A stretch of DNA of 64,000 nt from Limnochordia bacterium. Lineage in GTDB: Bacteria; Bacillota; Limnochordia; DTU080; RSA5. Both the position numbers and the translations under genes were made by a program. Within the stretch, counting starts at the first letter, position 1; every line of letters starts with the position of its first letter. The notes under the pieces were generated by a model, which had not been told where the DNA came from, made no database searches, and was given only the letters and a program-made list of their open reading frames with translations. Where the stretch lies: the NCBI GenBank assembly GCA_041686855.1, contig JAWLDA010000001.1, positions 111,700-175,699 of the forward strand. The letters run 5' to 3'. Positions 3,423 to 54,217 of this stretch are shown piece after piece.

Positions 3423-4724
3423 ATGAGGGGTAAAGCGCACCAATCGCTGAGAAAATCTATGGCGCTGACTGTCGTTGCGGTGGTAACGTTGCTGTGTGCT
3501 TCGTTCAGCTGGGCTGCTGAGCCAGTTACGTTGCAGGTCCTGGTGCACGGCAGCTCGGGCACCGACTACTGGAACCGCACCCGTACATTCTTTGACGGGT
3601 TCGAAGAGCTCAACCCGGACATCAAGATTGAGATGACGCCGAGCCCGGCCTCGAACCCGGCCGAAGGATTGGCGGTCCGTGTGGCTGGCGGAATCTCTCC
3701 GGACTTGGTCCGCCTCTGGGGGGTCCCCGAGGTCGCGAAGGCCGGATTAATTCAAGACATCACCGATCGGTTTGAGCGACTCCCAAGTGATGTGCGCTCC
3801 GACTTTTGGCCGGTGCTCATCGATGGCACCTTGAGCTGGAACGGGAAGCTCTACGCGCTCCCCTTGGGTACCGCGGTGAGCAGCTACTTCTACAACAAGC
3901 GGCTCTTCAACGAGAGTGGTGTCCCCTTCCCAACCGCTGATTGGAGTTGGGAACAGGAAGGGACGCAAGAGATTCCCCGTATGACCCGCGATCAAAACGG
4001 CGATGGGACGCCGGAGACATGGGGGATTGTCCGCATCGACGGCGGATTGGGACGTGAGACGTATCACTTTAGCTACGCCGCAGGCGGCGGCCCTCTGTTC
4101 AGTCAAGACGGGACCAAGTTTCTCGGCAACTCTGATGCCGTGAAGGACGCTCTACAGTTTATTCACGACCTGGCGCACGTCCATCAGGCGATGCCGGCAC
4201 AGGGCACCGGTTGGACCAACTTTGGCGAGCAGACTGCTGCATCGATGATGTGGGGCAGCTTCATGTTTGGATTCATGCAGCGTTTCCCGGATCTGGATTG
4301 GGATATCTCGTACACCCCCACGTTCCAGGGAGGTCGGGCGACCAACATCTGGCCCGAAACCCCGTACGCGATCCCCGTCGGCGCGAAACATCCAGATGAA
4401 GCCTGGAGAGTGCTCGAGTTCATCGCCAGTGTGGAAGGGCAAACCCTGGCCATGGAGCTGGGATGGGGTATTCCTCCGGCTAGGCGCAGTGTCGCACTCT
4501 CGGCCTTCCTCGATGCCAACGCTGACGTAAACATTCCGGCCATGATCGATATGATCAACACACCCGCGACACAGGTGTTGCCCGAACACGTTCCCCAGGA
4601 TATCCGGACGTACTACTATAACAATGTGATCAAGCCGGTGGCCACCGGGGAGAAGAGCGCAGTGCAGGCGCTCGACGAGGCGAGCCCAGTCATCCAGAGT
4701 ATGCTCGACGAGTGGAACGAGTAG
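3423..4724 (+). CDS. ABC transporter substrate-binding protein (carbohydrate, family 1), orphan
   Basis: Signal peptide MRGKAHQ...SFSWAAEP. Typical SBP segments (WNGKLYALP, YYNKRLF). Start chosen at Met19 with GGAGG 8 bp upstream. No permease genes adjacent. Confidence 0.85.
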   Translation: MRGKAHQSLRKSMALTVVAVVTLLCASFSWAAEPVTLQVLVHGSSGTDYWNRTRTFFDGFEELNPDIKIEMTPSPASNPAEGLAVRVAGGISPDLVRLWGVPEVAKAGLIQDITDRFERLPSDVRSDFWPVLIDGTLSWNGKLYALPLGTAVSSYFYNKRLFNESGVPFPTADWSWEQEGTQEIPRMTRDQNGDGTPETWGIVRIDGGLGRETYHFSYAAGGGPLFSQDGTKFLGNSDAVKDALQFIHDLAHVHQAMPAQGTGWTNFGEQTAASMMWGSFMFGFMQRFPDLDWDISYTPTFQGGRATNIWPETPYAIPVGAKHPDEAWRVLEFIASVEGQTLAMELGWGIPPARRSVALSAFLDANADVNIPAMIDMINTPATQVLPEHVPQDIRTYYYNNVIKPVATGEKSAVQALDEASPVIQSMLDEWNE

Positions 4725-9283: not shown

Positions 9284-9709
9284 TCATAATCCAGTAGCGT
9301 CGAAAAGGATCTGTGTGCTGGTGTAAACGATAAGCGTGAGACAAAACTGAGCCGTCTGGAGGGACGCGATTCGGTATTGCCAGTCGAGGCGATGTAGGTT
9401 GGGCGTGCCGTTGATGTAGGCTGCAACTCCCCAGATCAATGCTGCGGGGGCCAAACTCATTCTTGCGATGTCAATCGTCGAAGTGAATCGTGCCAACTGG
9501 AGATTTGCCCAGCTGAATTCGTTAACGGGAGAAATCACTAGTAATGTTGCTGCACAGGTGATGGTGTTCACGAGAATAAGGTCCAAGTTGATGGAGAGCC
9601 AGTCGAGGATTCCTCGACCAGAACGGCGGCCTGTCATGGCGACCATGGCACTGGCAACAATCAACCCTAACCTCAATGAAACTGCGAAGTGGTCGATATC
9701 GATCTCCAA
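9284..9709 (-). CDS. hypothetical 4-TM membrane protein (possible immunity/partner protein)
   Basis: Four hydrophobic segments. TTG start with GGAGGGGG 6 bp upstream. Lies 80 bp downstream of the glycine-zipper secreted protein on the same strand. Local GC is lower than the flanks. Confidence 0.5.
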   Translation of the reverse strand: MEIDIDHFAVSLRLGLIVASAMVAMTGRRSGRGILDWLSINLDLILVNTITCAATLLVISPVNEFSWANLQLARFTSTIDIARMSLAPAALIWGVAAYINGTPNLHRLDWQYRIASLQTAQFCLTLIVYTSTQILFDATGL

Positions 9710-9789
9710 TCGGCCCCCTCCAACCGTATGGCGGTACGTAACAAACGTACCGCCAGGGAATCATCTCGGCTGCCCCGAGGTGGGGGATG

Positions 9790-10230
9790 CTACCACACGT
9801 GATCCATCGCCCCGGAGAGTGCACCAACATTGCCGCTACCCCACGCACTCCACGCTGTGGCTGCCGCGCTGACCGCCACTTGTGCTCCCGTGGCCACTAA
9901 TGCGATGGTAGTAGCTGTCCCGGTGAGAGCGCCAGTTAGCGTTCCCTTTCCGACTGCCTCGGCGAAACCACCGAAACTCTTTTCGCCCGGTGAGGTTGCG
10001 TAATAAAACGCGCTGCCAACAGCGCCTGCGATCGCACCGGCGACAATCGGATGAACCTCACCGGTGATCTGGTCCATTTCGCTCTCCGACAGTATTTCCA
10101 CATGCTCGGGTAACGTGCCGGGATTCGACACCTTGGACAAATCGCTGGAGGCAAAGCTCTGACTTGTCATCAAAGCCATTGCAACCAGCACAACGACGAT
10201 TCGGGAAGTTAACCCACGGATCATGCCCAT
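9790..10230 (-). CDS. small secreted glycine-zipper (GxxxG-rich) protein, bacteriocin-like
   Basis: Sec signal MGMIRGLTSRIVVVLVAMALMTSQSFA. Mature part is Gly/Ala/Thr-rich with GAIAGAVGS, GALTGTATT and ALSGA motifs. Start set at the internal MGM. The long ORF N-terminus is GC-poor and has no RBS. Confidence 0.55.
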   Translation of the reverse strand: MGMIRGLTSRIVVVLVAMALMTSQSFASSDLSKVSNPGTLPEHVEILSESEMDQITGEVHPIVAGAIAGAVGSAFYYATSPGEKSFGGFAEAVGKGTLTGALTGTATTIALVATGAQVAVSAAATAWSAWGSGNVGALSGAMDHVW

Positions 10231-10526
10231 TGTATAAGCCCCTTTGTGTTTTCCCCTCATAGGCGTGTGTCCATTGTAGAGGCGTTCTGATTTGGTATCA
10301 AATGCGATAAAGGCAGCAAATAGTCGATTACGGAAACGTTTCAATAGAAGACACAACACCGTAATCGCCTCCGTTCTCTCATTATCTCCGTTTCTCGCGG
10401 GACCCAGGGGCACTCTGCCGCGCATGAGTTTCCAGGAGAGTGTGTCGTTTCCCCGAAAGGTGATGCCAAAGACTGACGGGCGCACATCGGCGCATTTAGC
10501 GCACTTCATGGAGGAGCTGATCTCTG

Positions 10527-11525
10527 GTGATAGGAGCAGCGGTCGTAGGTGTCGGTTACGCGGGTGGACAGCATGCAGCGGCCTATCGGAGGCACCCAAA
10601 GACCGAGTTGCGGGGAATTGTTACCCGAGACCCCGACAATGTTGTGGGGGCCGACGACGTAAGGCTCATTACGGCTGATCTTGACGAAATGCTGGCAGAT
10701 TCCGACATTCATATCGTCTCGATCTGTACACCTGATGCCCTCCACGCAGAGCAGGTCGAAAAAGCGTTGGCCGCCGGCAAACATGTCGTTTGTGAGAAAC
10801 CGCTGGCGCCTTCTGTCGAGGAGTGCCGACGCATCCTGGACGCCGCCAAGGCATCCGGACGCAAGGTGATGACGGGACAGATCCTGCGATTCTCGCCTCA
10901 ATTCGAATCAATTCACAAAATGGTGCACCAAGGAGAATTGGGCGCTCCCTTTTTTGTGGAAGCGGACTACCTACACAATCTAGAGCCCTTCCTGGGTGGC
11001 TGGCGATCTGATCCTGACCATAAGCCTAACCTGACGCTCGGAGGCGGATGCCACCCCGTTGACCTGCTACGTTGGTTGGTCGGCGAGGTGGTAGAAGTGC
11101 ACGCTTACGGCAATCGCAAAGTGCTGCACGAGTCGGCGTATCCCCACGACTGCATTCTTATGAGTCTCACGTTTGCCACCGGTTGTATTGGAAAGGTCTT
11201 GGTGAGCGGGGGATGTAGGAGGCCGTACGCCCTCAACCTGTCGGTGTACGGAGATCAAGGGACGATCGAGAATGACAAGCTCTTCTTGGCCAAGATCGAT
11301 CATCTACAGGACTGGATGAATCTTTCCCTTCCAGTCGAAGAGGAGTACCCCTACTACTACGAAGAGATTGACCACCTCTTGCAATGTATCGAGCAGGATA
11401 CGTTACCCCGGGTTGACGCGGCTGAAGGGGCCCGTTCGGTAGCCGTTTGTCTGGCTGCGCAGCGCTCGATTGACGAAGGAAGGACCGTTAAGGTCGCTGA
11501 GGTCGAGTCGGAGATGGGGCTATAA
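10527..11525 (+). CDS. Gfo/Idh/MocA family oxidoreductase
   Basis: VVGVGYAGGQHAAAY Rossmann motif. CEKPLA motif. GTG start with GGAGGAG 10 bp upstream. Confidence 0.85.
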   Translation: MIGAAVVGVGYAGGQHAAAYRRHPKTELRGIVTRDPDNVVGADDVRLITADLDEMLADSDIHIVSICTPDALHAEQVEKALAAGKHVVCEKPLAPSVEECRRILDAAKASGRKVMTGQILRFSPQFESIHKMVHQGELGAPFFVEADYLHNLEPFLGGWRSDPDHKPNLTLGGGCHPVDLLRWLVGEVVEVHAYGNRKVLHESAYPHDCILMSLTFATGCIGKVLVSGGCRRPYALNLSVYGDQGTIENDKLFLAKIDHLQDWMNLSLPVEEEYPYYYEEIDHLLQCIEQDTLPRVDAAEGARSVAVCLAAQRSIDEGRTVKVAEVESEMGL

Positions 11526-11719
11526 ATCCAACCCAATAAACTAAAACACGCTCCTTGGGCTCCCGGATGGTCGGGGTGGCCGCCGCTTCCATCGCCATCT
11601 GCACAGAATGTGCGACACGTGAGTATCATGAGTGACCACTCTCATTAACCACTGAATCCCTCGGATTTAGGACGAATTCTCAGGTCGCCAACACTTCCAT
11701 AAAGGAGCGTGTTTTCCGA

Positions 11720-12043
11720 GTGAAGTTTAACTGCCTTTGCGGACGAGTCATTGTTGACAGTGCCGATTGCAGCCCGGTTAAAGCGCACGTTATTCCTGAT
11801 CAAGAAGCGTTCAGCATTCTTGACGCTATCGACGCAGCCATCTCTCATTCCGGATCGAGCGCCCATGCCAAAGCGGTGGCGTGTATGAAGGTGCGGGCGC
11901 TCCTGAGTGATGTGGCCCGACGTATTTGGCAATGTCAAGAGTGCGGGCGACTGTGGATCGAGGACAAGGCGAAAGAGATAAAGCTAAAGGCGTTTCGCCC
12001 GGAGTCGGGGGAGAACCTGGTCGGAATCCTAGCCAAAGAGTGA
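11720..12043 (+). CDS. small Cys-rich (zinc-ribbon-like) hypothetical protein
   Basis: CLC...C and CQEC pairs. GTG start preceded by AAGGAG. Ends 12 bp before the ADH start. Confidence 0.45.
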   Translation: MKFNCLCGRVIVDSADCSPVKAHVIPDQEAFSILDAIDAAISHSGSSAHAKAVACMKVRALLSDVARRIWQCQECGRLWIEDKAKEIKLKAFRPESGENLVGILAKE

Positions 12044-12054
12044 GGGCAGATTTC

Positions 12055-13047
12055 ATGAGAGTAGTGCGCTACGAAGGGAGCCGCCGTGTCTCGGTCGTCG
12101 AGGCGCCGGAGCCGAGACCGAAACCGGGCGAGGTGGTTGTAGAGATTGCCGTCTCGGCTCTATGCGGCAGTGAGTTGGGGGCGTATCGACGGGATCAAGG
12201 TACGCCCGGTAACAGCGGTCACGAAGCGGCAGGCGTCGTCGTCGAACTCGGTCCGGGCGTGAGTGCGTTGGAGGTCGGACAGCGGGTCGGCTTGAGCGCC
12301 GTCGTCGGGTGTGGTGCATGTCGTCAGTGTGACGCCGGAGCGTACACGTGGTGTCCAGATTACCGGGTGTATTCAAACATGCATGCAGAGCGTGTCGCGA
12401 TACCGGCCAGAGCGTGTCATGTTCTCCCGGACGATGTGGACTGGGACGTAGGGGTGTTGATAACGGGCGACGCGTTGGGCGTGCCCTATCACACGTCGAG
12501 AAAAATGGGATCCGATGTGAGGAGCGTTGCAATCTTTGGCGTTGGACCAGTCGGACTAGGTAACACCCTCGTACAGAGTTACCAGGGGCGAGACGTGATC
12601 GCCGTCGATTTGTCGCCGAAGCGCCTCGAGCTGGCTCGGGGCCTCGGGGCCGTACATACGGTGAACGCTGCAGAAAAGGATCCCGTAGAGGCTGTTGTCG
12701 TCCTGACGTCCAGCGATGGGGCCGATGTCTGTATTGAAGCGGCCGGGCGACCGACAACGTTAAAGCAGTGTTTTAAAGCGGTGCGAACAGGCGGTCACGT
12801 CGTCATGAACGGCGAGCAAGGGAGTGTAGAGCTCTCACCCAGCAACGATTTTATTCGCCGGGATATCACGGCGACCGGGTCGTGGTTTTATCACTACGCG
12901 GAGTTCCATCAAATGCTTACACTCTATCGACAGGGGCTGCGCGTTCGCGACCTGGTGACGCATCGATTCGATCTTGAGCGGGCTGACGAGGCGTTCGCGC
13001 TCTTTGATGCTGGTGAGACTGGGAAGGTACTTTTGGAAATGAAATAG
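12055..13047 (+). CDS. zinc-dependent alcohol dehydrogenase (MDR superfamily, sorbitol/threonine-DH-like)
   Basis: GHEAAGVV catalytic-zinc motif. CGACRQCDAGAYTWC structural-zinc motif. GVGPVG NAD motif. Start at internal Met with GAGTGAGGG upstream. The upstream ORF extension is an Arg/Gly-rich artefact. Confidence 0.85.
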   Translation: MRVVRYEGSRRVSVVEAPEPRPKPGEVVVEIAVSALCGSELGAYRRDQGTPGNSGHEAAGVVVELGPGVSALEVGQRVGLSAVVGCGACRQCDAGAYTWCPDYRVYSNMHAERVAIPARACHVLPDDVDWDVGVLITGDALGVPYHTSRKMGSDVRSVAIFGVGPVGLGNTLVQSYQGRDVIAVDLSPKRLELARGLGAVHTVNAAEKDPVEAVVVLTSSDGADVCIEAAGRPTTLKQCFKAVRTGGHVVMNGEQGSVELSPSNDFIRRDITATGSWFYHYAEFHQMLTLYRQGLRVRDLVTHRFDLERADEAFALFDAGETGKVLLEMK

Positions 13048-13161: not shown

Positions 13162-14475
13162 ATGAGGTTGGCAAAAGGAATGCGCGTTGGACTTTTCACC
13201 ATCGTATTCTGCCTGCTCATCAGCGGGGCGCTGGCGGCCGCGCCGGTGAACATCACGATGTGGCACCCGTTCCCCGATCGGGAGGAGTTTGGCGCTTGGC
13301 AGACGCTGGTGGACAGGTTTAATGCCGAGAATCCGGATATTAGCGTAACGTTGGAGGGTAAAGCGGGCATGACCTCCAGCCCTGACGGGTTGATTGTACC
13401 GGTCGCCAGCGGCGCCGGTCCCGATCTTGCCTTTTTTAGTTACGCTTGGACCCCGATGCTCTCGGCTAACGAGGTCTTTCTCAATCTGCGGCCTATGATG
13501 GAAAGGGACGGCTTCCTTCCTGAGCTGGAAGAAGATTTCCTCCCCGGTACACACAGCGCCCTCGGATGGCAAGGCGGAATTTACGGGGTGCCGGCCGACG
13601 TATCGGTGATGGTGCCGATGTATCTCCCCGAGGTACTCGACGTCTCGGGTGTGGCCGCGCCCGCGCCAGGCTGGACCTGGGACGACATGATCGACCTCGT
13701 ACGATCGGTGCGGCGGATGGGCTCTAACGGTGAGTGGGACATCTATCCGGGGTTGGACGATCATCCCCTCCACACTTACCTTCCAATCGTGTTGCAGGCC
13801 GGCGCCCGTTTCTTTGACAACGACGCGCGCAGCTCCGCAGTCGACAGTGCTGAGATGCGAGAAGGGCTCGAGTTTCTGACTCGTCTCTTTGACGAGGAGT
13901 ACCTCGTCTGGACCCCCGACCGCCGCGATGTCTTTATGGCGGGCAAAGGTGCCATCCTCTTTGGTTCGGATGCTTCTATCGGAAACCTCTTCTTGGACCA
14001 ACGGCCAAATATGCGGGTCGCGCATCCACCGCGCCACCCCAATCGGGAGCCGGTCACGTCCATGGTCTTTCACTCGCTCTCGGTCGTACGGTCCGGTGAT
14101 TCCGAGCGCGAAGAGGCTGCGTGGAAACTCCTGCGTTACCTTACCACCACGGATTCCTTAGTACATGTTGCCCGCATTAGTGGTAAGATGCCTCCACGGA
14201 TCAGCGCGCTCCGAGATGCCGACTTCCAGTACGATCGACGGGAGTACCCGGCGCTGATGGACGTCCTCGAAGTGCTTCCGATGGGAACGACCGATGGTTG
14301 GGTGGGAGTTCCCGATGCAGGACCGTACTTGCGGGGTGTCCTCTCGGCAGGACTGGGCAAAGCACGACCCGGTCCCAATCGGGCCAGTGTCGAAGAGATT
14401 GTGGAAGAGATGCACGTCGGCACGCAAAACGTGCTCGATGATTTCTGGAACAATTACCAAGCCACGGATCGCTAG
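13162..14475 (+). CDS. ABC transporter substrate-binding protein (carbohydrate), orphan
   Basis: Signal peptide MRLAKGMRVGLFTIVFCLLISGALAAAP. AAGGAG 8 bp before ATG. SBP family-1 architecture. Confidence 0.85.
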   Translation: MRLAKGMRVGLFTIVFCLLISGALAAAPVNITMWHPFPDREEFGAWQTLVDRFNAENPDISVTLEGKAGMTSSPDGLIVPVASGAGPDLAFFSYAWTPMLSANEVFLNLRPMMERDGFLPELEEDFLPGTHSALGWQGGIYGVPADVSVMVPMYLPEVLDVSGVAAPAPGWTWDDMIDLVRSVRRMGSNGEWDIYPGLDDHPLHTYLPIVLQAGARFFDNDARSSAVDSAEMREGLEFLTRLFDEEYLVWTPDRRDVFMAGKGAILFGSDASIGNLFLDQRPNMRVAHPPRHPNREPVTSMVFHSLSVVRSGDSEREEAAWKLLRYLTTTDSLVHVARISGKMPPRISALRDADFQYDRREYPALMDVLEVLPMGTTDGWVGVPDAGPYLRGVLSAGLGKARPGPNRASVEEIVEEMHVGTQNVLDDFWNNYQATDR

Positions 14476-16972: not shown

Positions 16973-18267
16973 ATGAAGAGACGCTCATGGTTTCGTACGT
17001 TCTTTTTCGTTGTGAGTATGGTCTTGGTTATAGGAGCGGGAATCACTCAAGCAAAGATTGTGGTGTTGGCATGGCCGAGTATTGCTCAAATCCACGATTT
17101 GGAGGGTGCTGTTGAGCGGTTTAACACGTTGCATCCCGAAATTGAAGTCGAGTTTCTGTTGGGTGCGTCAAACTCTCGCGGTTACATCGAGCAAGTGATG
17201 ATTATGCAAGCGTCTGGCCAACAGGTGGACGTTGTGACCGCCATGCCTCACTGGGGTCTTCCATTGGCTATTGGTGACGGGACGACTGATCTCATCCCGT
17301 ACCTCAACGCAGCCGGTTTAAATGACTCTGATTATGCCCCCGGGACTTTGGATGGTTTCCGATGGAACTCGGAAGTTTGGGGGTTGCCGCTGAGCGTCCT
17401 GCTTTATGGTTCAGCATACAACGAGCGTCTCTTGACCGAGAGTGGGTTTGCTGCGCCTCAAGACTCTGATTGGACTTGGGAGACGGTTGTAGAAATGGCT
17501 CGTAGAACCACGTTGGAGATCGTTCAGGTGATGGCGTGGCAGACCAATATGGCGTCGACGCAGGCGGAAGTCCGCGAACACTCTTCCTCTATCCGCTTGT
17601 TAACCAAGCCGGCGGGCTCGCGTATGACCGATATGTGGATCCGCAGCGCGCGTTATGGACGGAGTCCTATGTAACCAGGGCCCTGGAATATTACCTTGGG
17701 CTTTTTGAGAATGGGTACGCTCCGCGTTCGGGGCACATACCTGCAAACATTGGCTGGAACGAAGGGAACGTTGCATTTCGAATGATTGCGGGACCAACGT
17801 CCTATGCAACGCTTGCAGAGTCGCTTGGGCATCGGGAAGTGAAGTTCATCCAAGCACCTCGCGGACCTGTTCGAGGCGGAAATCAAATCGCCGCGTATGG
17901 GGTCAATATGACGGCGACGAGTCAACATAAAGACGAAGCCTGGATGTTCATGGAGTATGTCTCGACTTCCGCGGCTGAGCTCCTTGAGAGATATCGTGAG
18001 CCTTCAAGACAGCGTCCATCCTCGTATATACCGAACATCCAACACTTTATGGAGCTGGACGACATTGCCGATCTTCCGGTGTGGCAAGCGCTCGCAGTGA
18101 ATCCGGACAATACTCCTCGATATGCACTCAGGGGCGAGTCGAGAATTAATGATGCGATTCAGAATGCCCTGTTAGACGTCGTGAATCAGGAACAAGCGCT
18201 ACCAGCGGCAGTGGAGAATATCCAACGTGTCGTTCAATCGATTTTAGACGAAGAACACAGCAGGTAA
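16973..18267 (+). pseudogene. ABC sugar substrate-binding protein gene disrupted by a frameshift near 17500-17540
   Basis: Two overlapping ORFs (16973-17674 and 17536-18267) each carry half of an SBP: signal peptide plus N-lobe, then a FLYPLVNQAGG...YY..LF C-lobe. Local GC is ~50%. Confidence 0.6.
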
Positions 18268-20899: not shown

Positions 20900-22153
20900 T
20901 TAATGCGGCAGGAGTGCCGAGGCCCGCCGTGCGGCTTCTTCGACCGCAGAGCGGACGGATGTCTCGCCGCGCCACACTTTGCTGATCTCCTGGTTCAACA
21001 CTGCATTTGCGTCGTTCCACCAGGTTGTGACAGGCAGATACCGTCCGGTTCCAAGCGCTGCGCCGATTTGTAGATTGTCTTCGCGGGAGAGGAAGGGCGC
21101 TCCGTTGTCGAGGAATTCGTCGAGCTGTGCTGCTCGGCGGTTAAGCGGCACTCCGGCCTGCTGCACCGCGTTGAGGCGTATGCGCCACCCCTCTTCGCCA
21201 AAGGCCCATGTGGCAAACTTAAACGCTTCCTCGGGATGCGCCGAGTTTTTGGGAATAGCGACAGCGTTGCCACCGAGCTGTCCAATAGAACCCGCCGGCC
21301 CATTTGGGAGCGGCGCCATGCCCCAGTCGAACGGGACTTCCCTCATGGTGAACCAAAAGGAGCGGTTGAGGCGTGTCATGACGGTCTGGCCGTTTTGAAA
21401 GCCTGGCGCAGGTCCTGGGCCGCCGGTGCCAGGTGCCGGTTCGACGCCTTCGGTGACAAACCGTTCGAGAAACTCCAGACCTTCGACGGACTCACTCGAG
21501 GTGAGCTCGATCGATCTGTAATCCTGCGAGACGATTTCTCCACCAAAACTCCATACGACGGAGGGCCAGATAGGAGTCATGCTGAGGACGCCCCAACGGT
21601 TGACCGAACCGTCGCCACCAGTTTTTACTCCCCGTTTGCCGATGTCGAGCATGTCGGTATACGTCCAGTCGGCAGTGGGCGCGGGAATGCCAATCTCGTC
21701 TAGAGCGTTTTTATTATAGAGGATTGAAGGCGCGCCGCCCTCTCGAGGGACGCCGAAGATTCCTTCGTCATGGCTCAGGGCTTCGATGGCAGGAGGGAAG
21801 AACTCGTCGGATTTGCCGGACCGTTCATAATAAGGTGAGAGGTCGACCAGGGCGCCCGTCTCGGCCATTGACACGATGGTCCAAAATGAAGTCTCGAAGA
21901 GATCGAGTTGTGTACCCGATGCCAACATCACTTGCGCAGCCGGAACCTCTGGCGTTTTGTGAATGTACTCAATCTCTACTTGGGGATTGAGTTTCATATA
22001 CTCTGCGGCAAGGGTCTTGTGGGCGTGCTCAACTGTTTCGTTTCCGTTTCCCATCCACACCAGCTTGATGTTTTGGGCGCCCGCAAGGGCCGAGAGGATT
22101 ACGACGATGCAGGAAACTAAGAGCAAGTCAAACCCTAAGTGACGCATCTTCAT
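20900..22153 (-). CDS. ABC transporter substrate-binding protein (carbohydrate), orphan
   Basis: Signal peptide MKMRHLGFDLLLVSCIVVILSALAGAQN. AAGGGAG 7 bp before ATG. 20 bp downstream of the ROK regulator gene. Confidence 0.85.
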   Translation of the reverse strand: MKMRHLGFDLLLVSCIVVILSALAGAQNIKLVWMGNGNETVEHAHKTLAAEYMKLNPQVEIEYIHKTPEVPAAQVMLASGTQLDLFETSFWTIVSMAETGALVDLSPYYERSGKSDEFFPPAIEALSHDEGIFGVPREGGAPSILYNKNALDEIGIPAPTADWTYTDMLDIGKRGVKTGGDGSVNRWGVLSMTPIWPSVVWSFGGEIVSQDYRSIELTSSESVEGLEFLERFVTEGVEPAPGTGGPGPAPGFQNGQTVMTRLNRSFWFTMREVPFDWGMAPLPNGPAGSIGQLGGNAVAIPKNSAHPEEAFKFATWAFGEEGWRIRLNAVQQAGVPLNRRAAQLDEFLDNGAPFLSREDNLQIGAALGTGRYLPVTTWWNDANAVLNQEISKVWRGETSVRSAVEEAARRASALLPH

Positions 22154-27154: not shown

Positions 27155-27317
27155 CCGAACTGGGTAGGAAGAACATAAAGGGGGACTGTCCTTGTTGTAT
27201 TAACGTTCATATTCGGGCGCGATGTATGCAGCTCTTACGAGAGTGGAGACCGCGTTCAAATGTCGGAAAATGATGTGTGTTGCGTAAGGTGAAAATCAAT
27301 TCGAGGAGGAACCACGT

Positions 27318-28556
27318 GTGAGAGGGATCCGCATTACCTTCCTAATGTTGTTGGTTTTCGCTGTCACCGGTTCAGTGGTGTTCGCCCAGGAGAATAACGT
27401 CACCCTAAAGTTCGCCTATTGGGGCGATCAAGAGTACCACGAAGCGATTGTCGGCGCGCTTGAGGCGTTTCAAGAAGAGTACCCGCGGATCAAGGTCGAT
27501 CCTCAGTATGTGACAGGGATGGCCTTCAGTGACGCAATCCTGACGATGATCGCGGGTGGGGTTGCCCCAGACGTGATGGACATGAGCGTAGATTTGTACC
27601 CTTTGCTCGTAGAGAATGAGTCGCTGTTAGACCTGGGTGCGTACATCGATCGCGATCCTGAACTCGACCGGACGACGTGGCTACCAGGAGTCCTTGAAAT
27701 GTTTAGCGAGGGTGATAGGGTGTATGCTCTGCCTCGTTCACCAAACATGCAGCTGCTTTGGTACAACGGGAACGCTTTTGATGAAGCAGGAATAGCACGT
27801 CCCGGAAGTGGTATGACATGGGACGAATACGTCGATGCAGGGCAGCGCCTCACTCTAAGGCGAGGGGAAGATGTCGTGCGTTGGGGCGCATCACCTTATT
27901 CGTGGACATCAGCCGTCTACGAAAATGGAGGAGAAGTGATTGGAGAGGAAGGACTCGCGCTTGGAAGCGCGGCTGCCCTCGAAGCGCTTCAGTGGACGGC
28001 CGGTCACGCTCTTGAGCGACAATTCGCTCCGACTCCTTCGATGAACGTTTCGGCGACCCGGTTTATGGATGGGCACTTCGCCATGAGTGTTCAAGGATCG
28101 TGGAGGCTCGCCGCACATCTCAATATCGAGGCATTTGAGTGGGGAGCGACCGGGTTGCCGTCGGGAAAAAGGTCGGCGGCCGAGGGCTCCATTGATATGG
28201 GCGTCGTCAGCGCCTCAACGCAGCATCCCGAAGAGGCGTGGTTGCTTCTTAAGTACCTGAATGTAAAGGGCGAGAAGGTCTCAACGCTCTTTGGCGAGGC
28301 GGGGAAATTGAAGCCACCACTGACACGAGATCCAGGCGTCCACGGCGAAATCTGGGCAGCGGAGCCGCGATCCGACGTAAAACAGGTGATCACGGCGCAG
28401 GCCCAGTACATTGTTGATCCGTTTCACGGACTTTCGCGGGCCGCTGAAATTCGCTCGGCGATCAACCCGGTGATTCGAGAGATTATGGATGGTATAGTCA
28501 GCGTCGAAGCGGGCGTTGAGCGGCTCGAGCCGGTTATCAACGCCATGGTGCCCTAA
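27318..28556 (+). CDS. ABC transporter substrate-binding protein (carbohydrate), orphan
   Basis: Signal peptide MRGIRITFLMLLVFAVTGSVVFAQE. GTG start with GAGGAGG 9 bp upstream. Confidence 0.85.
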   Translation: MRGIRITFLMLLVFAVTGSVVFAQENNVTLKFAYWGDQEYHEAIVGALEAFQEEYPRIKVDPQYVTGMAFSDAILTMIAGGVAPDVMDMSVDLYPLLVENESLLDLGAYIDRDPELDRTTWLPGVLEMFSEGDRVYALPRSPNMQLLWYNGNAFDEAGIARPGSGMTWDEYVDAGQRLTLRRGEDVVRWGASPYSWTSAVYENGGEVIGEEGLALGSAAALEALQWTAGHALERQFAPTPSMNVSATRFMDGHFAMSVQGSWRLAAHLNIEAFEWGATGLPSGKRSAAEGSIDMGVVSASTQHPEEAWLLLKYLNVKGEKVSTLFGEAGKLKPPLTRDPGVHGEIWAAEPRSDVKQVITAQAQYIVDPFHGLSRAAEIRSAINPVIREIMDGIVSVEAGVERLEPVINAMVP

Positions 28557-52918: not shown

Positions 52919-54217
52919 CTACTCTTCGGCGAGGATCGCGTTGATTTGGCGAGAAGCCTCCGCCAATGCTTCGCCGGCACCGATCCGGCCAGCCAAGATG
53001 TTGAGGCTCACCTGTGTCAACGTGCGGCGAATCTCGGGCTTGGGGTAGCGAGGCAGGGGCGTGAATGTGTTCATGGTCTCATTCCAGACGGCTTCCACCG
53101 CGGTGCGAAACTGCCCGTAGCTCATCTGGAGATCGATATGAGGCCTCACGAGGCTTCGTTGATTGGGTATGTTCCCGAGTTGTGTCATCTGGTACTCGGC
53201 TTGGTGTGGAACAATAAACTTGAGGACTTCCCAGGCTGCGTCTGTTCGTGGAGACGCAGCGTTAATCATCCATGGCTGGAACGAGGCCATGGTATGCCGT
53301 CCAGCCGGCCCTGACGGGTATGGGACGTAGTCGGGCAGATACGGGAAGAGACCGATGTGAAAGGCGGTAGGCGTGCCCTGGTCAAAGACGACGTCCCCGC
53401 TCTCGCGCCGCTCGTACGTACCGGGCGCCTCCAGATCAGCAATGACGATCGCGTCTCTTACGACTTGGTCGGCCATCCACTCGTACGCCGTCACCGTTTC
53501 GAGCGAGTTGATCGCCGTCTGATTGCTGTCGACCGACATCACGTTGCCGCCGAAGTTCCAAATAAACGGCCATTCGTTGAACGCGGAACTCGCCGTACCC
53601 AGGAGACCGATCTGGACGAGATGCCCTTCGCCTTCACGTTCGGTCACTTTCGTCGCGTAAAGGGCGAAGGTCTCCTGATCCCACCGACCCGCATCGAAGA
53701 GAGCGTTGGGGTCTTCGAGGCCGGCCGCGTTGAGCGCGGCGGCGTGGTACGCCATGGGCTTGACGTAAACGGATCCGGGGATGCCGACGGTCTTCCCGTT
53801 GTACCGATCGAAAAAGAGGAGCTCTTGCGCGAAGTCACGCTCCTGCGCTAAAAAGCCGTCGAGCGGGAGGGCAGAGTTGGTCAAGTAAACACTGTTCGCG
53901 TCCTCCGGCTCCATAATAAAGAGATCCGGCGCCTCGTCTCCAAGGGTTGCGAGCATGACAAGGACTTTCTCTGCGTACTCGGAGGCGCGCCCGGGGACGA
54001 CCATCAAATTGATGTCGATGTTGGGGTGGTCAAACTCCTGAAGTAGCCGTTGTAAATTGGGTTGGGGGCCGGCCTCTTCGACGAACTGTCCCCACACGGC
54101 CACATTGACGGTCGTTGCCGCGGCGCTTTGCGCTGAAACAGGGCGCACAGCGGCTCCAAACGCCCCAACCAGCGCTATGAGGACTCCAATGAGAAACGGG
54201 TTCGCCATTCGATGCAC
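52919..54217 (-). CDS. ABC transporter substrate-binding protein (carbohydrate), orphan
   Basis: Signal peptide MANPFLIGVLIALVGAFGAAVRPVSAQS. SBP family-1 pattern. GAGGGA upstream of GTG. Confidence 0.85.
   Translation of the reverse strand: MHRMANPFLIGVLIALVGAFGAAVRPVSAQSAAATTVNVAVWGQFVEEAGPQPNLQRLLQEFDHPNIDINLMVVPGRASEYAEKVLVMLATLGDEAPDLFIMEPEDANSVYLTNSALPLDGFLAQERDFAQELLFFDRYNGKTVGIPGSVYVKPMAYHAAALNAAGLEDPNALFDAGRWDQETFALYATKVTEREGEGHLVQIGLLGTASSAFNEWPFIWNFGGNVMSVDSNQTAINSLETVTAYEWMADQVVRDAIVIADLEAPGTYERRESGDVVFDQGTPTAFHIGLFPYLPDYVPYPSGPAGRHTMASFQPWMINAASPRTDAAWEVLKFIVPHQAEYQMTQLGNIPNQRSLVRPHIDLQMSYGQFRTAVEAVWNETMNTFTPLPRYPKPEIRRTLTQVSLNILAGRIGAGEALAEASRQINAILAEE

What the first reader, a model, noticed from the sequence alone, without database searches (positions are those of the whole stretch)
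9284..10230. Lower-GC islet encoding a secreted glycine-zipper (bacteriocin-like) protein followed by a 4-TM membrane protein
The pair 9790-10230 and 9284-9709 lies on the minus strand, 80 bp apart. Local GC drops to ~50% versus ~63% in the flanks. The first product has a Sec signal and a mature region dominated by GxxxG/AxxxA repeats (GAIAGAVGS...GALTGTATTIALVATGAQ), typical of membrane-inserting class II bacteriocin-like peptides or glycine-zipper pore formers. The second is a small polytopic membrane protein, the classic immunity-partner layout. It is sandwiched between a peptidase gene and a Gfo gene, with no obvious functional relation to the neighbours. It is a candidate horizontally acquired toxin/immunity or envelope-stress module.
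Basis: partly seen in the sequence, partly recalled or inferred. Interest (0 to 1): 0.55.

Follow-up and report, generated by a model that had tools for sequence, protein, structure and literature searches.

The report
Sec-exported glycine-zipper bacteriocin-like gene pair
Two small adjacent genes encode a secreted glycine-rich helical peptide, built like a bacteriocin precursor but placed behind an ordinary secretion signal, and a small membrane protein that may protect the producer; the family is very rare and unstudied.

Summary
Both ORFs are real and lie 80 nt apart on the minus strand. The "low-GC islet" is overstated: the region is 55.5% GC against a window mean of 58.5±2.8%, and the core of gene A is 61%.

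Gene A (146 aa) belongs to a very rare family, with 28 representatives among 1.84 billion proteins. Every aligned member has a Sec signal peptide, then an internal motif L-S-x-x-E-[LM]-x-x-[VI]-x-G-[E/G], then an 85-95 aa GxxxG-rich helical core. The motif is the canonical double-glycine bacteriocin leader. Ten of 26 members hit TIGR03949 (class IIb bacteriocin, one above the curated cut-off) and 8 hit Pfam Bacteriocin_IIc. The window protein itself hits neither.

In all eight lineages with downstream sequence, a small hydrophobic ORF follows A directly. The window's 141-aa B' is an orphan that resembles this partner only marginally. One lineage adds a Sec-exported FapD-like C39 peptidase. No such peptidase lies in these 64 kb.

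Best reading: a bacteriocin-like membrane-active peptide exported by Sec and matured outside the cytoplasm, plus an immunity-like partner. Toxicity, cleavage and immunity are all untested. There is no evidence of horizontal transfer. I rate it a new variant of a known kind, of moderate interest.

The parts
10273..10301 (-). Promoter-like site TTGATA-17 nt-TACAAT, upstream of gene A
   Evidence: 10 of 12 matches. One such site is expected by chance in this stretch, so the only support is its position 43 nt upstream of the ATG.
10239..10245 (-). Ribosome-binding site AAAGGGG, 8 nt before the ATG of A
   Evidence: Read from the sequence.
9790..10230 (-). Gene A: 146-aa pre-pro-peptide (Sec signal + double-glycine-type leader + glycine-zipper core)
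   Evidence: The start at 10230 aligns with the N-termini of homologues. An in-frame ATG at 10260 cannot be excluded. The longer 189-aa and 239-aa versions in the protein collection have no counterpart in the family.
10150..10230 (-). Sec signal peptide, residues 1-27 (MGMIRGLTSRIVVVLVAMALMTSQSFA|SS)
   Evidence: All 26 aligned family members share the n-h-c layout and small residues at -3/-1. The AF2 model has a helix at residues 3-27. No dedicated signal-peptide predictor was available.
10057..10092 (-). Internal double-glycine-type leader motif LSESEMDQITGE (residues 47-58). G57 is the only invariant column of the family.
   Evidence: It is the only match to the motif in the six-frame translation of the 64 kb. 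The same segment in relatives maps to positions ~4-20 of TIGR03949.
9793..10056 (-). Core of 88 aa (residues 59-146): three predicted helices with conserved GxxxG motifs (G65xxxG69, G96xxxG100xxxG104, G136xxxG140). Net charge is -1.
   Evidence: pLDDT is 80-91 over residues 61-100.
9730..9754 (-). Stem-loop in the A-B' spacer (GGCGGUACGU-UUGUU-ACGUACCGCC, 10-11 bp) with no U-tract. Candidate partial terminator or mRNA stabiliser.
   Evidence: A strong GC-rich hairpin occupies the same spacer in L001, L007, L019 and L016 (z = -2.2 to -3.2). The window's own z-score is only -1.6.
9714..9721 (-). Ribosome-binding site GGAGGGGG, 7 nt before the TTG start of B'
   Evidence: Read from the sequence.
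9284..9709 (-). Gene B': 141-aa hydrophobic, all-helical protein with 3-4 membrane segments. Putative immunity or accessory partner.
   Evidence: It holds the position of the conserved small partner. Similarity is marginal: to the L016 partner, gapless over residues 10-67, p=0.0035; to the partner HMM, p=0.003-0.009 with the narrow model and 0.13 with the broad one.
10306..10386 (.). Imperfect inverted repeat (28-nt arms, 71% complementary; perfect core CGATTACGG/CCGTAATCG) just upstream of the -35 hexamer. Possible operator.
   Evidence: Function not tested.

Best explanation
Genes A and B' form a self-contained two-gene module of a very rare, uncharacterised family. In this family a class-II(b)-type bacteriocin precursor (acidic double-glycine-type leader plus GxxxG-rich helical core) sits behind a Sec signal peptide.

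Proposed mechanism:
1. A is transcribed from its own promoter. A stem-loop after A lowers read-through into B'.
2. Pre-pro-A is exported by Sec and cut by signal peptidase I after SFA27.
3. The exported pro-peptide keeps a 31-residue acidic pro-region that ends in LSESEMDQITG57-E58.
4. This leader is removed outside the cytoplasm at or next to the invariant Gly. The enzyme would be a Sec-exported stand-alone C39 cysteine peptidase of the FapD type. It is encoded beside the pair in one related lineage and, if present here, lies elsewhere in this genome.
5. The ~88-aa three-helix glycine-zipper core inserts into or aggregates on membranes of competing cells.
6. The membrane protein B' protects the producer.

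Shown: the gene structure, the signal/leader/core architecture, remote homology to class IIb bacteriocin precursors, conserved pairing with a small membrane protein, and the peptidase neighbour in one lineage.

Inferred: export, both cleavages, toxicity and immunity.
For: Rarity and architecture:
- 28 representatives at E<=1e-3 among 1.84e9 proteins.
- All 26 aligned members share the signal peptide and the motif L(-12)S(-11)xxE(-8)[LM](-7)xx[VI](-4)xG(-2). The Gly is the only invariant column.

Homology to bacteriocin precursors:
- 10 of 26 members hit TIGR03949. P0024 scores 27.5 bits against a cut-off of 21.5 (E 1.9e-6). P0010, 48% identical to the window protein, hits at E 0.014.
- 8 of 26 hit Pfam PF10439. 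The best is 25 bits against a gathering score of 27.1.
- All hits fall on the leader plus first zipper helix.

Neighbourhood:
- The L007 operon reads A, a 72-aa protein, a signal-bearing C39 peptidase, then a 273-aa secreted protein. The peptidase hits Pfam C39 at 6.5e-14; its best NCBIfam hit is FapD at 1e-7.
- A periplasmic, Sec-exported, active C39 peptidase has a precedent in FapD (PMC5557850).
- A small hydrophobic ORF lies directly downstream of A in 8 of 8 lineages.
- The pair sits in a different genomic neighbourhood in each lineage with enough flanking sequence.
- A hairpin occupies the A-B spacer in 5 of 5 lineages of the closer clade.

Core and analogy:
- The core is helical with conserved GxxxG motifs.
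- Glycine-zipper bacteriocin-like proteins of 84-86 aa with a small transmembrane immunity protein are known (Cdz, PMC5380434).
Against: - The window protein itself hits no bacteriocin model.
- Position -1 of the leader is Glu, not Gly/Ala/Ser.
- There is no C39 peptidase and no homologue of the 273-aa protein in the 64 kb. There is no second leader-bearing peptide either.
- Only one of the lineages examined has the peptidase next to the pair. It is absent within 10 kb in L020.
- The core is slightly acidic (-1), whereas class II bacteriocins are usually cationic.
- B' has no detectable relative in a search of 5.8 billion proteins, and its link to the conserved partner is marginal (p from 0.003 to 0.13, depending on the model).
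- In the RSA8-type lineage the pair keeps the same neighbours on all six contigs examined (the partner is listed on 123 contigs). It behaves there like a stable chromosomal gene.
- There are no expression or activity data.
Confidence: 0.5

Rival explanations
1. A is a subunit of a surface structure or matrix, not a toxin. It would be a self-assembling glycine-zipper or amyloid-like protein, exported by Sec, trimmed by a FapD-like peptidase and passed through a dedicated outer-membrane protein. The small membrane protein would act as an assembly or anchoring factor.
For: - The best named match of the neighbouring peptidase in L007 is FapD, the amyloid-maturation peptidase.
- That peptidase is followed by a 273-aa signal-bearing protein with no long hydrophobic segment, reminiscent of FapD plus FapF.
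- Glycine zippers drive aggregation in CdzC and in amyloids.
- The core is not cationic.
Against: - The core has none of the Asn/Gln-rich repeats of Fap or curli subunits.
- AF2 predicts helices, not beta structure.
- The FapD match (31 bits) is far below the cut-off of 330.
- The peptidase and the 273-aa gene are absent from the window and from most lineages.
- The beta-barrel nature of the 273-aa protein was not tested.
- The leader and first helix match bacteriocin precursor models, not fibre subunits.
Confidence: 0.2
2. A and B' are small components of the producer's own envelope, for example a glycine-zipper membrane or stress protein with a partner. They would have no role in competition between cells, and the leader-like motif would serve folding or partner binding.
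For: - A few family members hit glycine-zipper envelope families weakly: Gly-zipper_YMGG, Gly-zipper_Omp, YiaD and TagQ, at E 0.004-0.25.
- The top Foldseek matches, none significant, include SlyB (E 6.6).
- The genomic position is stable in the RSA8-type lineage.
- There is no exporter or peptidase nearby in most lineages.
Against: - The family is extremely rare and patchy, unlike housekeeping envelope proteins.
- There is no lipobox Cys.
- The most conserved feature is the processing-type leader motif, not the zipper.
- The glycine-zipper hits are weaker and less frequent than the bacteriocin-precursor hits.
Confidence: 0.15
3. A is a secreted signalling peptide precursor. Double-glycine leaders also mark ComC/BlpC-type pheromones. 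B' would be an unrelated or spurious ORF.
For: - The leader motif is shared with pheromone precursors (TIGR01847 hit in one member at E 0.16).
- B' has no detectable relative and weak coding statistics.
Against: - The core is 85-95 aa, hydrophobic and conserved in three helices, far larger than known pheromones.
- No sensor kinase or regulator lies beside the pair in any locus seen.
- A small membrane ORF follows A in 8 of 8 lineages.
- B' has a strong ribosome-binding site and its coding score is the best of the six frames.
Confidence: 0.05
4. The pair is a recently acquired foreign islet, as the first reader proposed from the GC dip.
For: - B' and the non-coding flanks are 48-51% GC.
- The family is patchy, and the pair has different neighbours in different lineages.
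- In L026 a Tn5-type transposase gene lies 1 kb away.
Against: - The region is at the 19th GC percentile of the window, and the A core is 61% GC.
- The low GC of B' falls at codon positions 1 and 2, which reflects its hydrophobic composition. Position 3 is 61%.
- There are no flanking repeats, tRNA or integrase.
- There are no relatives in plasmids, phages or viral contigs.
- No sister genome lacking the pair could be examined.
Confidence: 0.1

Closest known systems
Class IIb (two-peptide) bacteriocin precursors, lactobin A/cerein 7B family (NCBIfam TIGR03949; Pfam PF10439 Bacteriocin_IIc)
   Same: - The leader consensus LSxxELxx[IV]xG is followed immediately by a GxxxG-rich helix.
- Ten of 26 family members hit TIGR03949 and 8 of 26 hit PF10439, all over this same segment.
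- A small membrane-protein gene lies next to the structural gene.
   Different: - The leader is internal, preceded by a Sec signal peptide and a ~20-residue linker.
- Position -1 is Glu in 17 of 26 members.
- The core is 85-95 aa with three helices, against 30-50 aa.
- There is a single peptide gene, not two.
- No ABC transporter with a peptidase domain was seen.
- The window protein is below detection for both models.
Cdz system of Caulobacter crescentus (CdzC/CdzD glycine-zipper bacteriocin-like proteins with CdzI immunity; PMC5380434)
   Same: - Mature proteins of about 85 aa, rich in small and hydrophobic residues, with extended glycine zippers.
- A small transmembrane protein confers immunity.
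- The producer is not a Gram-positive lactic acid bacterium.
   Different: [quoted passage not shown]
- Cdz has two toxin proteins.
- No sequence homology was tested here.
- Aggregation and contact-dependence are unknown for this family.
FapD, the periplasmic C39 peptidase of the Pseudomonas Fap amyloid system (NCBIfam NF058616; PMC5557850)
   Same: - The peptidase beside the pair in locus L007 is about 222 aa and has its own signal peptide.
- It aligns with FapD over nearly its full length (E 1e-7).
- Its likely substrates are also Sec-exported.
   Different: - The match scores 31 bits against a cut-off of 330, so it is FapD-like in layout only.
- The candidate substrate here carries a canonical double-glycine-type leader, which Fap proteins lack.
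- No such peptidase lies in the window.
Sec-dependent class II bacteriocins (enterocin P type; from general knowledge, not tested here)
   Same: They are exported by an ordinary Sec signal peptide rather than by a dedicated ABC transporter, and an immunity gene lies adjacent.
   Different: They have no second, double-glycine-type pro-region. Signal peptidase alone yields the mature peptide.
Glycine-zipper envelope lipoproteins (SlyB / Rick_17kDa_Anti PF05433, Gly-zipper_Omp PF13488, YMGG PF13441)
   Same: They share a signal peptide followed by a glycine-zipper helical hairpin.
   Different: - The family has no lipobox Cys.
- The window protein hits none of these models.
- The lipoproteins are widespread housekeeping proteins, whereas this family is very rare.

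Membership tests
Class IIb bacteriocin, lactobin A/cerein 7B family (TIGR03949) / Pfam PF10439 Bacteriocin_IIc | Match to the family HMM at or above the curated cut-off | tested here: not met
   The window protein gets no hit, either whole or truncated. One relative, P0024, passes TIGR03949 (27.5 bits against 21.5). Nine others hit the same model below the cut-off. The best PF10439 score is 25 bits against 27.1. Membership therefore holds only by a transitive chain.
Class IIb bacteriocin, lactobin A/cerein 7B family (TIGR03949) / Pfam PF10439 Bacteriocin_IIc | Double-glycine leader consensus: hydrophobic at -12, -7 and -4, Glu at -8, Gly at -2 | tested here: met
   The window has L(-12) S(-11) E(-8) M(-7) I(-4) G(-2). 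The family counts are L 20/26, E 20/26, L/M 26/26, V/I 21/26 and G 26/26.
Class IIb bacteriocin, lactobin A/cerein 7B family (TIGR03949) / Pfam PF10439 Bacteriocin_IIc | Gly, Ala or Ser at position -1 (GG/GA/GS cleavage site) | tested here: not met
   The window has Glu. In the family, E occurs in 17 of 26, G in 3 and A in 1.
Class IIb bacteriocin, lactobin A/cerein 7B family (TIGR03949) / Pfam PF10439 Bacteriocin_IIc | Leader at the very N-terminus, with no Sec signal | tested here: not met
   A Sec-type n-h-c signal with an AxA-like site precedes the leader in all 26 members.
Class IIb bacteriocin, lactobin A/cerein 7B family (TIGR03949) / Pfam PF10439 Bacteriocin_IIc | Two adjacent structural peptide genes | tested here: not met
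   The six-frame translation of the 64 kb holds only one leader-motif ORF. The related loci also show a single A gene.
Class IIb bacteriocin, lactobin A/cerein 7B family (TIGR03949) / Pfam PF10439 Bacteriocin_IIc | Dedicated ABC exporter with an N-terminal C39 peptidase domain in the locus | tested here: not met
   tblastn of the L007 C39 peptidase against the window finds nothing better than E 0.34. This is a limited test: one query, 64 kb only.
Class IIb bacteriocin, lactobin A/cerein 7B family (TIGR03949) / Pfam PF10439 Bacteriocin_IIc | GxxxG motifs in the mature peptide | tested here: met
   The core has four GxxxG motifs. G69, G96 and G100 are nearly invariant in the family.
Class IIb bacteriocin, lactobin A/cerein 7B family (TIGR03949) / Pfam PF10439 Bacteriocin_IIc | Antibacterial activity, and immunity conferred by the adjacent gene | not testable with these tools
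   Needs expression and killing assays.
Cdz-like contact-dependent glycine-zipper bacteriocins | Type I secretion genes (cdzA/cdzB) next to the toxin genes | tested here: not met
   No C39-domain match lies in the window. The proteins carry Sec signals instead.
Cdz-like contact-dependent glycine-zipper bacteriocins | Mature protein of about 85 aa dominated by small and hydrophobic residues, with an extended glycine zipper | tested here: met
   The core is 88 aa, 77% G/A/S/T/V/L/I, and contains GTLTGALTG. For comparison.
Cdz-like contact-dependent glycine-zipper bacteriocins | Sequence homology to CdzC/CdzD | not tested
Fap-type amyloid secretion (FapD peptidase + FapF barrel + Asn/Gln-repeat subunits) | Sec-exported stand-alone C39 peptidase in the locus | tested here: not met
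   Absent from the window. Present only in the related locus L007.
Fap-type amyloid secretion (FapD peptidase + FapF barrel + Asn/Gln-repeat subunits) | Asn/Gln-rich imperfect repeats in the secreted subunit | tested here: not met
   The 88-aa core has 1 Asn and 1 Gln, and the model is helical.
Glycine-zipper outer-membrane lipoproteins (SlyB / PF05433, PF13488) | Lipoprotein signal with a lipobox Cys, and a match to the HMM | tested here: not met
   The signal peptide ends SFA|SS with no Cys. The window protein gets no Pfam hit. The Foldseek match to SlyB has E 6.6.

The most novel reading that the evidence does not exclude
The family could represent a previously undescribed maturation route for class II bacteriocin-like toxins. 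Export would be by Sec rather than by a peptidase-containing ABC transporter. The double-glycine-type leader, here with an unusual Gly-Glu site, would then be removed outside the cytoplasm by a secreted FapD-like C39 peptidase. In at least one lineage the peptidase is coupled to a dedicated secreted or outer-membrane protein. If so, the family would supply the clear leader-bearing substrate class that is still missing for periplasmic C39 peptidases.
Probability: 0.3. Interest if true: 0.7.

Novelty: new variant of a known kind. Interest (0 to 1): 0.5.

Why it matters
Double-glycine leaders are normally read in the cytoplasm by the peptidase domain of dedicated ABC exporters. This family places the same leader after a Sec signal. 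In one lineage it also places it beside a secreted stand-alone C39 peptidase.

If that pairing is functional, it would show that the leader/C39 recognition module can be moved to the outside of the cytoplasmic membrane. It would also offer a defined candidate substrate for FapD-like periplasmic peptidases. The FapD target was still unclear in the paper read here (PMC5557850).

Bacteriocin-mining tools that expect an N-terminal leader and an ABC exporter would miss this class of membrane-active peptides. Pfam and NCBIfam report nothing for the window protein.

If the proteins turn out to be ordinary envelope components, the finding is of minor interest.

Tried and rejected
- Pfam, NCBIfam, PADLOC and PHROGs scans of A and B' gave nothing usable.
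- Profile search of the A family against PDB sequences, and Foldseek of the AF2 model against PDB, gave nothing significant. The afdb50 library was unavailable.
- The GTDB species-representative genomes yielded one relative only, the unclassified MAG RSA8. The JGI metagenome scan yielded two short contigs.
- Plasmid, phage and viral-contig searches found no relatives.
- A broad HMM of the partner proteins did not separate B' from shuffles (p=0.13). Only the narrow HMM and the L016 partner gave marginal signals. I therefore do not claim homology of B' as settled.
It has no Pfam, NCBIfam or PDB-sequence match.
- AF2 on B' as a single sequence gave low confidence (pLDDT 52).
- The organism could not be identified. 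Look-ups of the window proteins failed, accession searches in the literature found nothing, and the window holds no rRNA, tRNA or Rfam hit.
- A functional link to the downstream S9 peptidase was rejected. It has no signal peptide and is not a neighbour in any other lineage.
- Literature leads on HxsA, FilB and WGxxGxxG-CTERM proved irrelevant.
Full report
**1. What is there**

On the minus strand, ORF A (9790-10230, 146 aa) is followed after an 80-nt spacer by ORF B' (9284-9709, 141 aa, TTG start).
- A has the ribosome-binding site AAAGGGG 8 nt before its ATG.
- A promoter-like TTGATA-17-TACAAT lies 43 nt upstream. One such site is expected by chance in this stretch, so only its position counts.
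- B' has GGAGGGGG 7 nt before its TTG.
- The flanking genes are an S9-family peptidase (same strand, downstream) and a divergent Gfo/Idh/MocA oxidoreductase.
- The longer versions of A in the protein collection (189 and 239 aa) extend upstream into sequence with no counterpart in homologues. The family alignment supports the start at 10230. An in-frame ATG at 10260 cannot be excluded.

**2. The GC claim**

The region is 55.5% GC. The window mean is 58.5% (sd 2.8 for windows of equal size), so the region sits at the 19th percentile.

| Part | GC |
|---|---|
| A core | 61.4% |
| A-B' spacer | 63.7% |
| A signal/leader part | 52.9% |
| B' | 51.4% |
| Two non-coding flanks | 48-51% |

- In B' the deficit lies at codon positions 1 and 2 (0.49, 0.45). 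Position 3 is 0.61, as expected for a hydrophobic protein.
- Codon-usage log-odds are low for both ORFs (0.08-0.09, against 0.25±0.07 for neighbouring genes), but each is the best of its six frames.
- There are no flanking repeats and no tRNA. No relatives turned up in plasmid, phage or viral collections.
- The 'horizontally acquired islet' is therefore not supported.

**3. Protein A and its family**

Neither Pfam nor NCBIfam reports anything for A. A word-indexed search of 5.8 billion proteins found A itself and three relatives. An exhaustive HMMER search of 1.84 billion cluster representatives, using a three-sequence profile, found only 28 proteins at E<=1e-3. The family is therefore real but very rare.

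In the 26-sequence alignment every member has three parts:
- **Signal peptide.** An N-terminal Sec-type signal with 1-5 Lys/Arg, a hydrophobic stretch, and small residues at -3/-1. In the window this reads SFA|SS.
- **Linker and motif.** A variable linker of about 20 residues, then L-S-[DE]-x-E-[LM]-x-x-[VI]-x-G-[E/G/D...].
- **Core.** Usually 85-95 residues, with 45-62% Gly/Ala/Ser/Thr in most members.

The Gly of the motif is the only invariant column of the alignment. Numbered from that Gly as -2, the motif gives L(-12), S(-11), E(-8), L/M(-7), V/I(-4), G(-2). This is the canonical double-glycine leader of class II bacteriocins and related peptides. The one difference is position -1, which is Glu in 17 of 26 members (Gly in 3).

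The motif occurs once in the six-frame translation of the whole window. The pro-region in the window (residues 28-58) is acidic, with 7 Asp/Glu against 1 Lys/Arg.

**4. Link to known bacteriocin precursors**

Each family member was scanned on its own.
- Ten of 26 hit NCBIfam TIGR03949 (class IIb bacteriocin, lactobin A/cerein 7B family).
- Eight of 26 hit Pfam PF10439 (bacteriocin class II with double-glycine leader).
- P0024 passes the curated TIGR03949 cut-off (27.5 bits against 21.5, E 1.9e-6).
- P0028 reaches 25 bits on PF10439, whose gathering score is 27.1.
- P0010, 48% identical to the window protein, hits TIGR03949 at E 0.014.
- In every TIGR03949 hit the matched stretch is the internal leader motif plus the first glycine-zipper helix, mapped to profile positions ~4-36 of 45. 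The PF10439 hits begin at the same motif (profile positions 4-7 onward).

The window protein itself stays below detection, even when truncated. Its relationship to these families therefore rests on a transitive chain, not on a direct match.

**5. The core**

AF2 on the family alignment gives mean pLDDT 72, rising to 80-91 over residues 61-100. It predicts these helices:
- 3-27, the signal peptide
- 49-56, the leader
- 61-79, 86-114 and 117-145, the core

G69, Y77, G96 and G100 are nearly invariant. The core has four GxxxG motifs, including GTLTGALTG. [GA]xxx[GA] spacing is enriched over composition-matched shuffles (20 against 13.8±2.3, p=0.007). Net charge is -1. No solved structure matches significantly, by sequence or by fold.

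**6. The partner gene**

Downstream sequence is available for eight lineages. In each, a small hydrophobic ORF follows A directly on the same strand.

| Locus | Partner length |
|---|---|
| window | 141 aa |
| L001 | 70 aa |
| L007 | 72 aa |
| L016 | at least 87 aa (cut by the contig end) |
| L019/L020 | 74 aa |
| L026 | 73 aa |
| L028 | 74 aa |
| L030 | 68 aa |

- The ~70-aa partners of the closer clade share a motif around A-T-x-M-Q-[LV]-I-[YF]. They also form a tiny family: a profile search returned 6 proteins.
- B' has no detectable relative.
- Its residues 10-67 align without gaps and in register with the L016 partner (score 47, p=0.0035 against shuffles).
- A narrow partner HMM scores B' at p=0.003-0.009.
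- A reciprocal HMM built from B' and the L016 partner scores the L001, L007 and L019 partners at p=0.002-0.008.
- A broad HMM that includes the most divergent partners does not separate B' from shuffles (p=0.13).

I treat B' as a probable but unproven divergent, C-terminally extended member of the partner family. Hydropathy gives three clear segments and one weaker one. Single-sequence AF2 gives an all-helical, low-confidence model.

**7. The spacer**

A 10-11 bp GC-rich stem-loop with no U-tract sits between A and B' (9730-9754). Stem-loops also occupy this spacer in L001, L007, L019 and L016, and fold more strongly than shuffles there (z = -2.2 to -3.2). The window's own z-score is only -1.6. 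The more distant lineages have spacers too short for a hairpin. The element is consistent with an attenuator or stabiliser that favours the A transcript. That role is an inference.

**8. Neighbourhoods**

Each lineage with enough flanking sequence places the pair among different genes:
- window: S9 peptidase / Gfo
- L001: folB / HtrA-like gene
- L020: rhamnose-type catabolic genes / msrA
- L026: a sugar-binding protein gene / SIR2 plus a Tn5-type transposase

Only L007 adds further genes in a tight operon: A, the partner, a 222-aa C39 peptidase, and a 273-aa protein.
- The peptidase has its own signal peptide and apparent Cys/His/Asp catalytic motifs (read from the translation; no alignment to a C39 reference was made). 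It hits Pfam Peptidase_C39 at E 6.5e-14.
- Its best NCBIfam match is FapD, at E 1e-7 over nearly full length but far below the cut-off.
- The 273-aa protein also carries a signal and has no database match.
- FapD is the published precedent for a Sec-exported, periplasmic, catalytically active C39 peptidase, and its substrate was still unclear in that paper (PMC5557850).
- No C39 peptidase and no homologue of the 273-aa protein lie in the window. None lies within 10 kb in L020 either.

**9. Interpretation**

The best-supported reading is a bacteriocin-like module in which a class II-type precursor has been placed behind a Sec signal. The proposed steps are:
1. Sec export and signal-peptidase cleavage.
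2. Removal of the acidic leader outside the cytoplasm by a secreted C39 peptidase.
3. Membrane insertion or aggregation of the glycine-zipper core.
4. Protection of the producer by the small membrane partner.

The closest functional analogue is the Caulobacter Cdz system. It has glycine-zipper proteins of 84-86 aa and a small transmembrane immunity protein, but it is exported by type I secretion (PMC5380434).

Points against:
- The window protein has no direct model hit.
- Position -1 of the leader is Glu.
- There is only a single peptide gene.
- The core is not cationic.
- The peptidase lies beside the pair in only one lineage.
- B' has no detectable relative.
- There are no functional data.

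Rivals are a surface fibre or matrix subunit matured by a Fap-like route, an envelope protein of the producer itself, and a signalling peptide. I put the toxin/immunity reading at about 0.5. The architectural description (family membership, signal plus leader plus core, conserved pairing) I put at about 0.85.

**10. Novelty**

Neither protein is covered by Pfam or NCBIfam. My literature searches found no description of a Sec signal followed by a double-glycine leader. Within known biology this is a new variant of a known kind (class II bacteriocin-like peptide plus small membrane partner), not a new category. Interest is moderate. It would rise if extracytoplasmic C39 processing of these leaders were demonstrated.

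Noticed in passing
window 10231-10509: The protein collection holds gene A as 189-aa and 239-aa products with N-terminal extensions. The extensions have no counterpart in any homologue, so they look like start-codon miscalls. An in-frame ATG at 10260 (MRGKHKGAYT-MGMIRG...) resembles the called start of P0009, but it overlaps two Shine-Dalgarno-like purine runs.
   Followed up: partly
window 10306-10386: An imperfect inverted repeat lies immediately upstream of the promoter-like site of gene A. Its arms are 28 nt, its perfect core is CGATTACGG/CCGTAATCG, and the arms are 25 nt apart. It could be a regulator binding site.
   Followed up: no
L007 1356-2850 (also L008, L009): In one related lineage the pair is followed in a tight operon by a signal-bearing, FapD-like C39 peptidase (222 aa) and a 273-aa signal-bearing protein with no database match. 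The latter has no long hydrophobic segment and ends ...LTVSLQTKI. It could be an outer-membrane or secreted accessory protein.
   Followed up: partly
L026 2865-6064: In a distant family member's locus the pair is followed by a SIR2-domain gene. Next comes a 773-aa protein that combines DruA with Tn5-type transposase domains. This is the only hint of a mobile or defence-type neighbourhood among the loci seen.
   Followed up: no
L029 (GCA_041685055.1, JAWLGM010000319.1) = window 9682-12998: A second assembly of the same organism is 99.9% identical to the window over 3.3 kb. Its contig ends 27 nt into B'. This could reflect low coverage or strain variation at B'.
   Followed up: partly
window 16973-18267: Two overlapping same-strand ORFs (233 aa and 243 aa) together look like one sugar-binding protein gene split by a frameshift. 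They lie in the lowest-GC stretch of the window (about 50-53%).
   Followed up: no
window: 3447-4310, 13183-13878, 16973-17512, 21296-22126, 27315-28142, 53462-54172: At least six paralogous ABC-type sugar-binding protein genes match the L007 binding protein by tblastn. Those inspected have AxA-type rather than lipobox signal peptides. That may indicate an organism with a periplasm, though the phylum could not be determined.
   Followed up: partly
L015 1580-2600: The contig carrying relative P0004 appears riddled with frameshifts. The A homologue loses frame after ...SPGEKS, and the neighbouring genes are fragmented. P0004 is therefore an artefactually garbled family member, and I left it out of the alignments used for inference.
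   Followed up: partly
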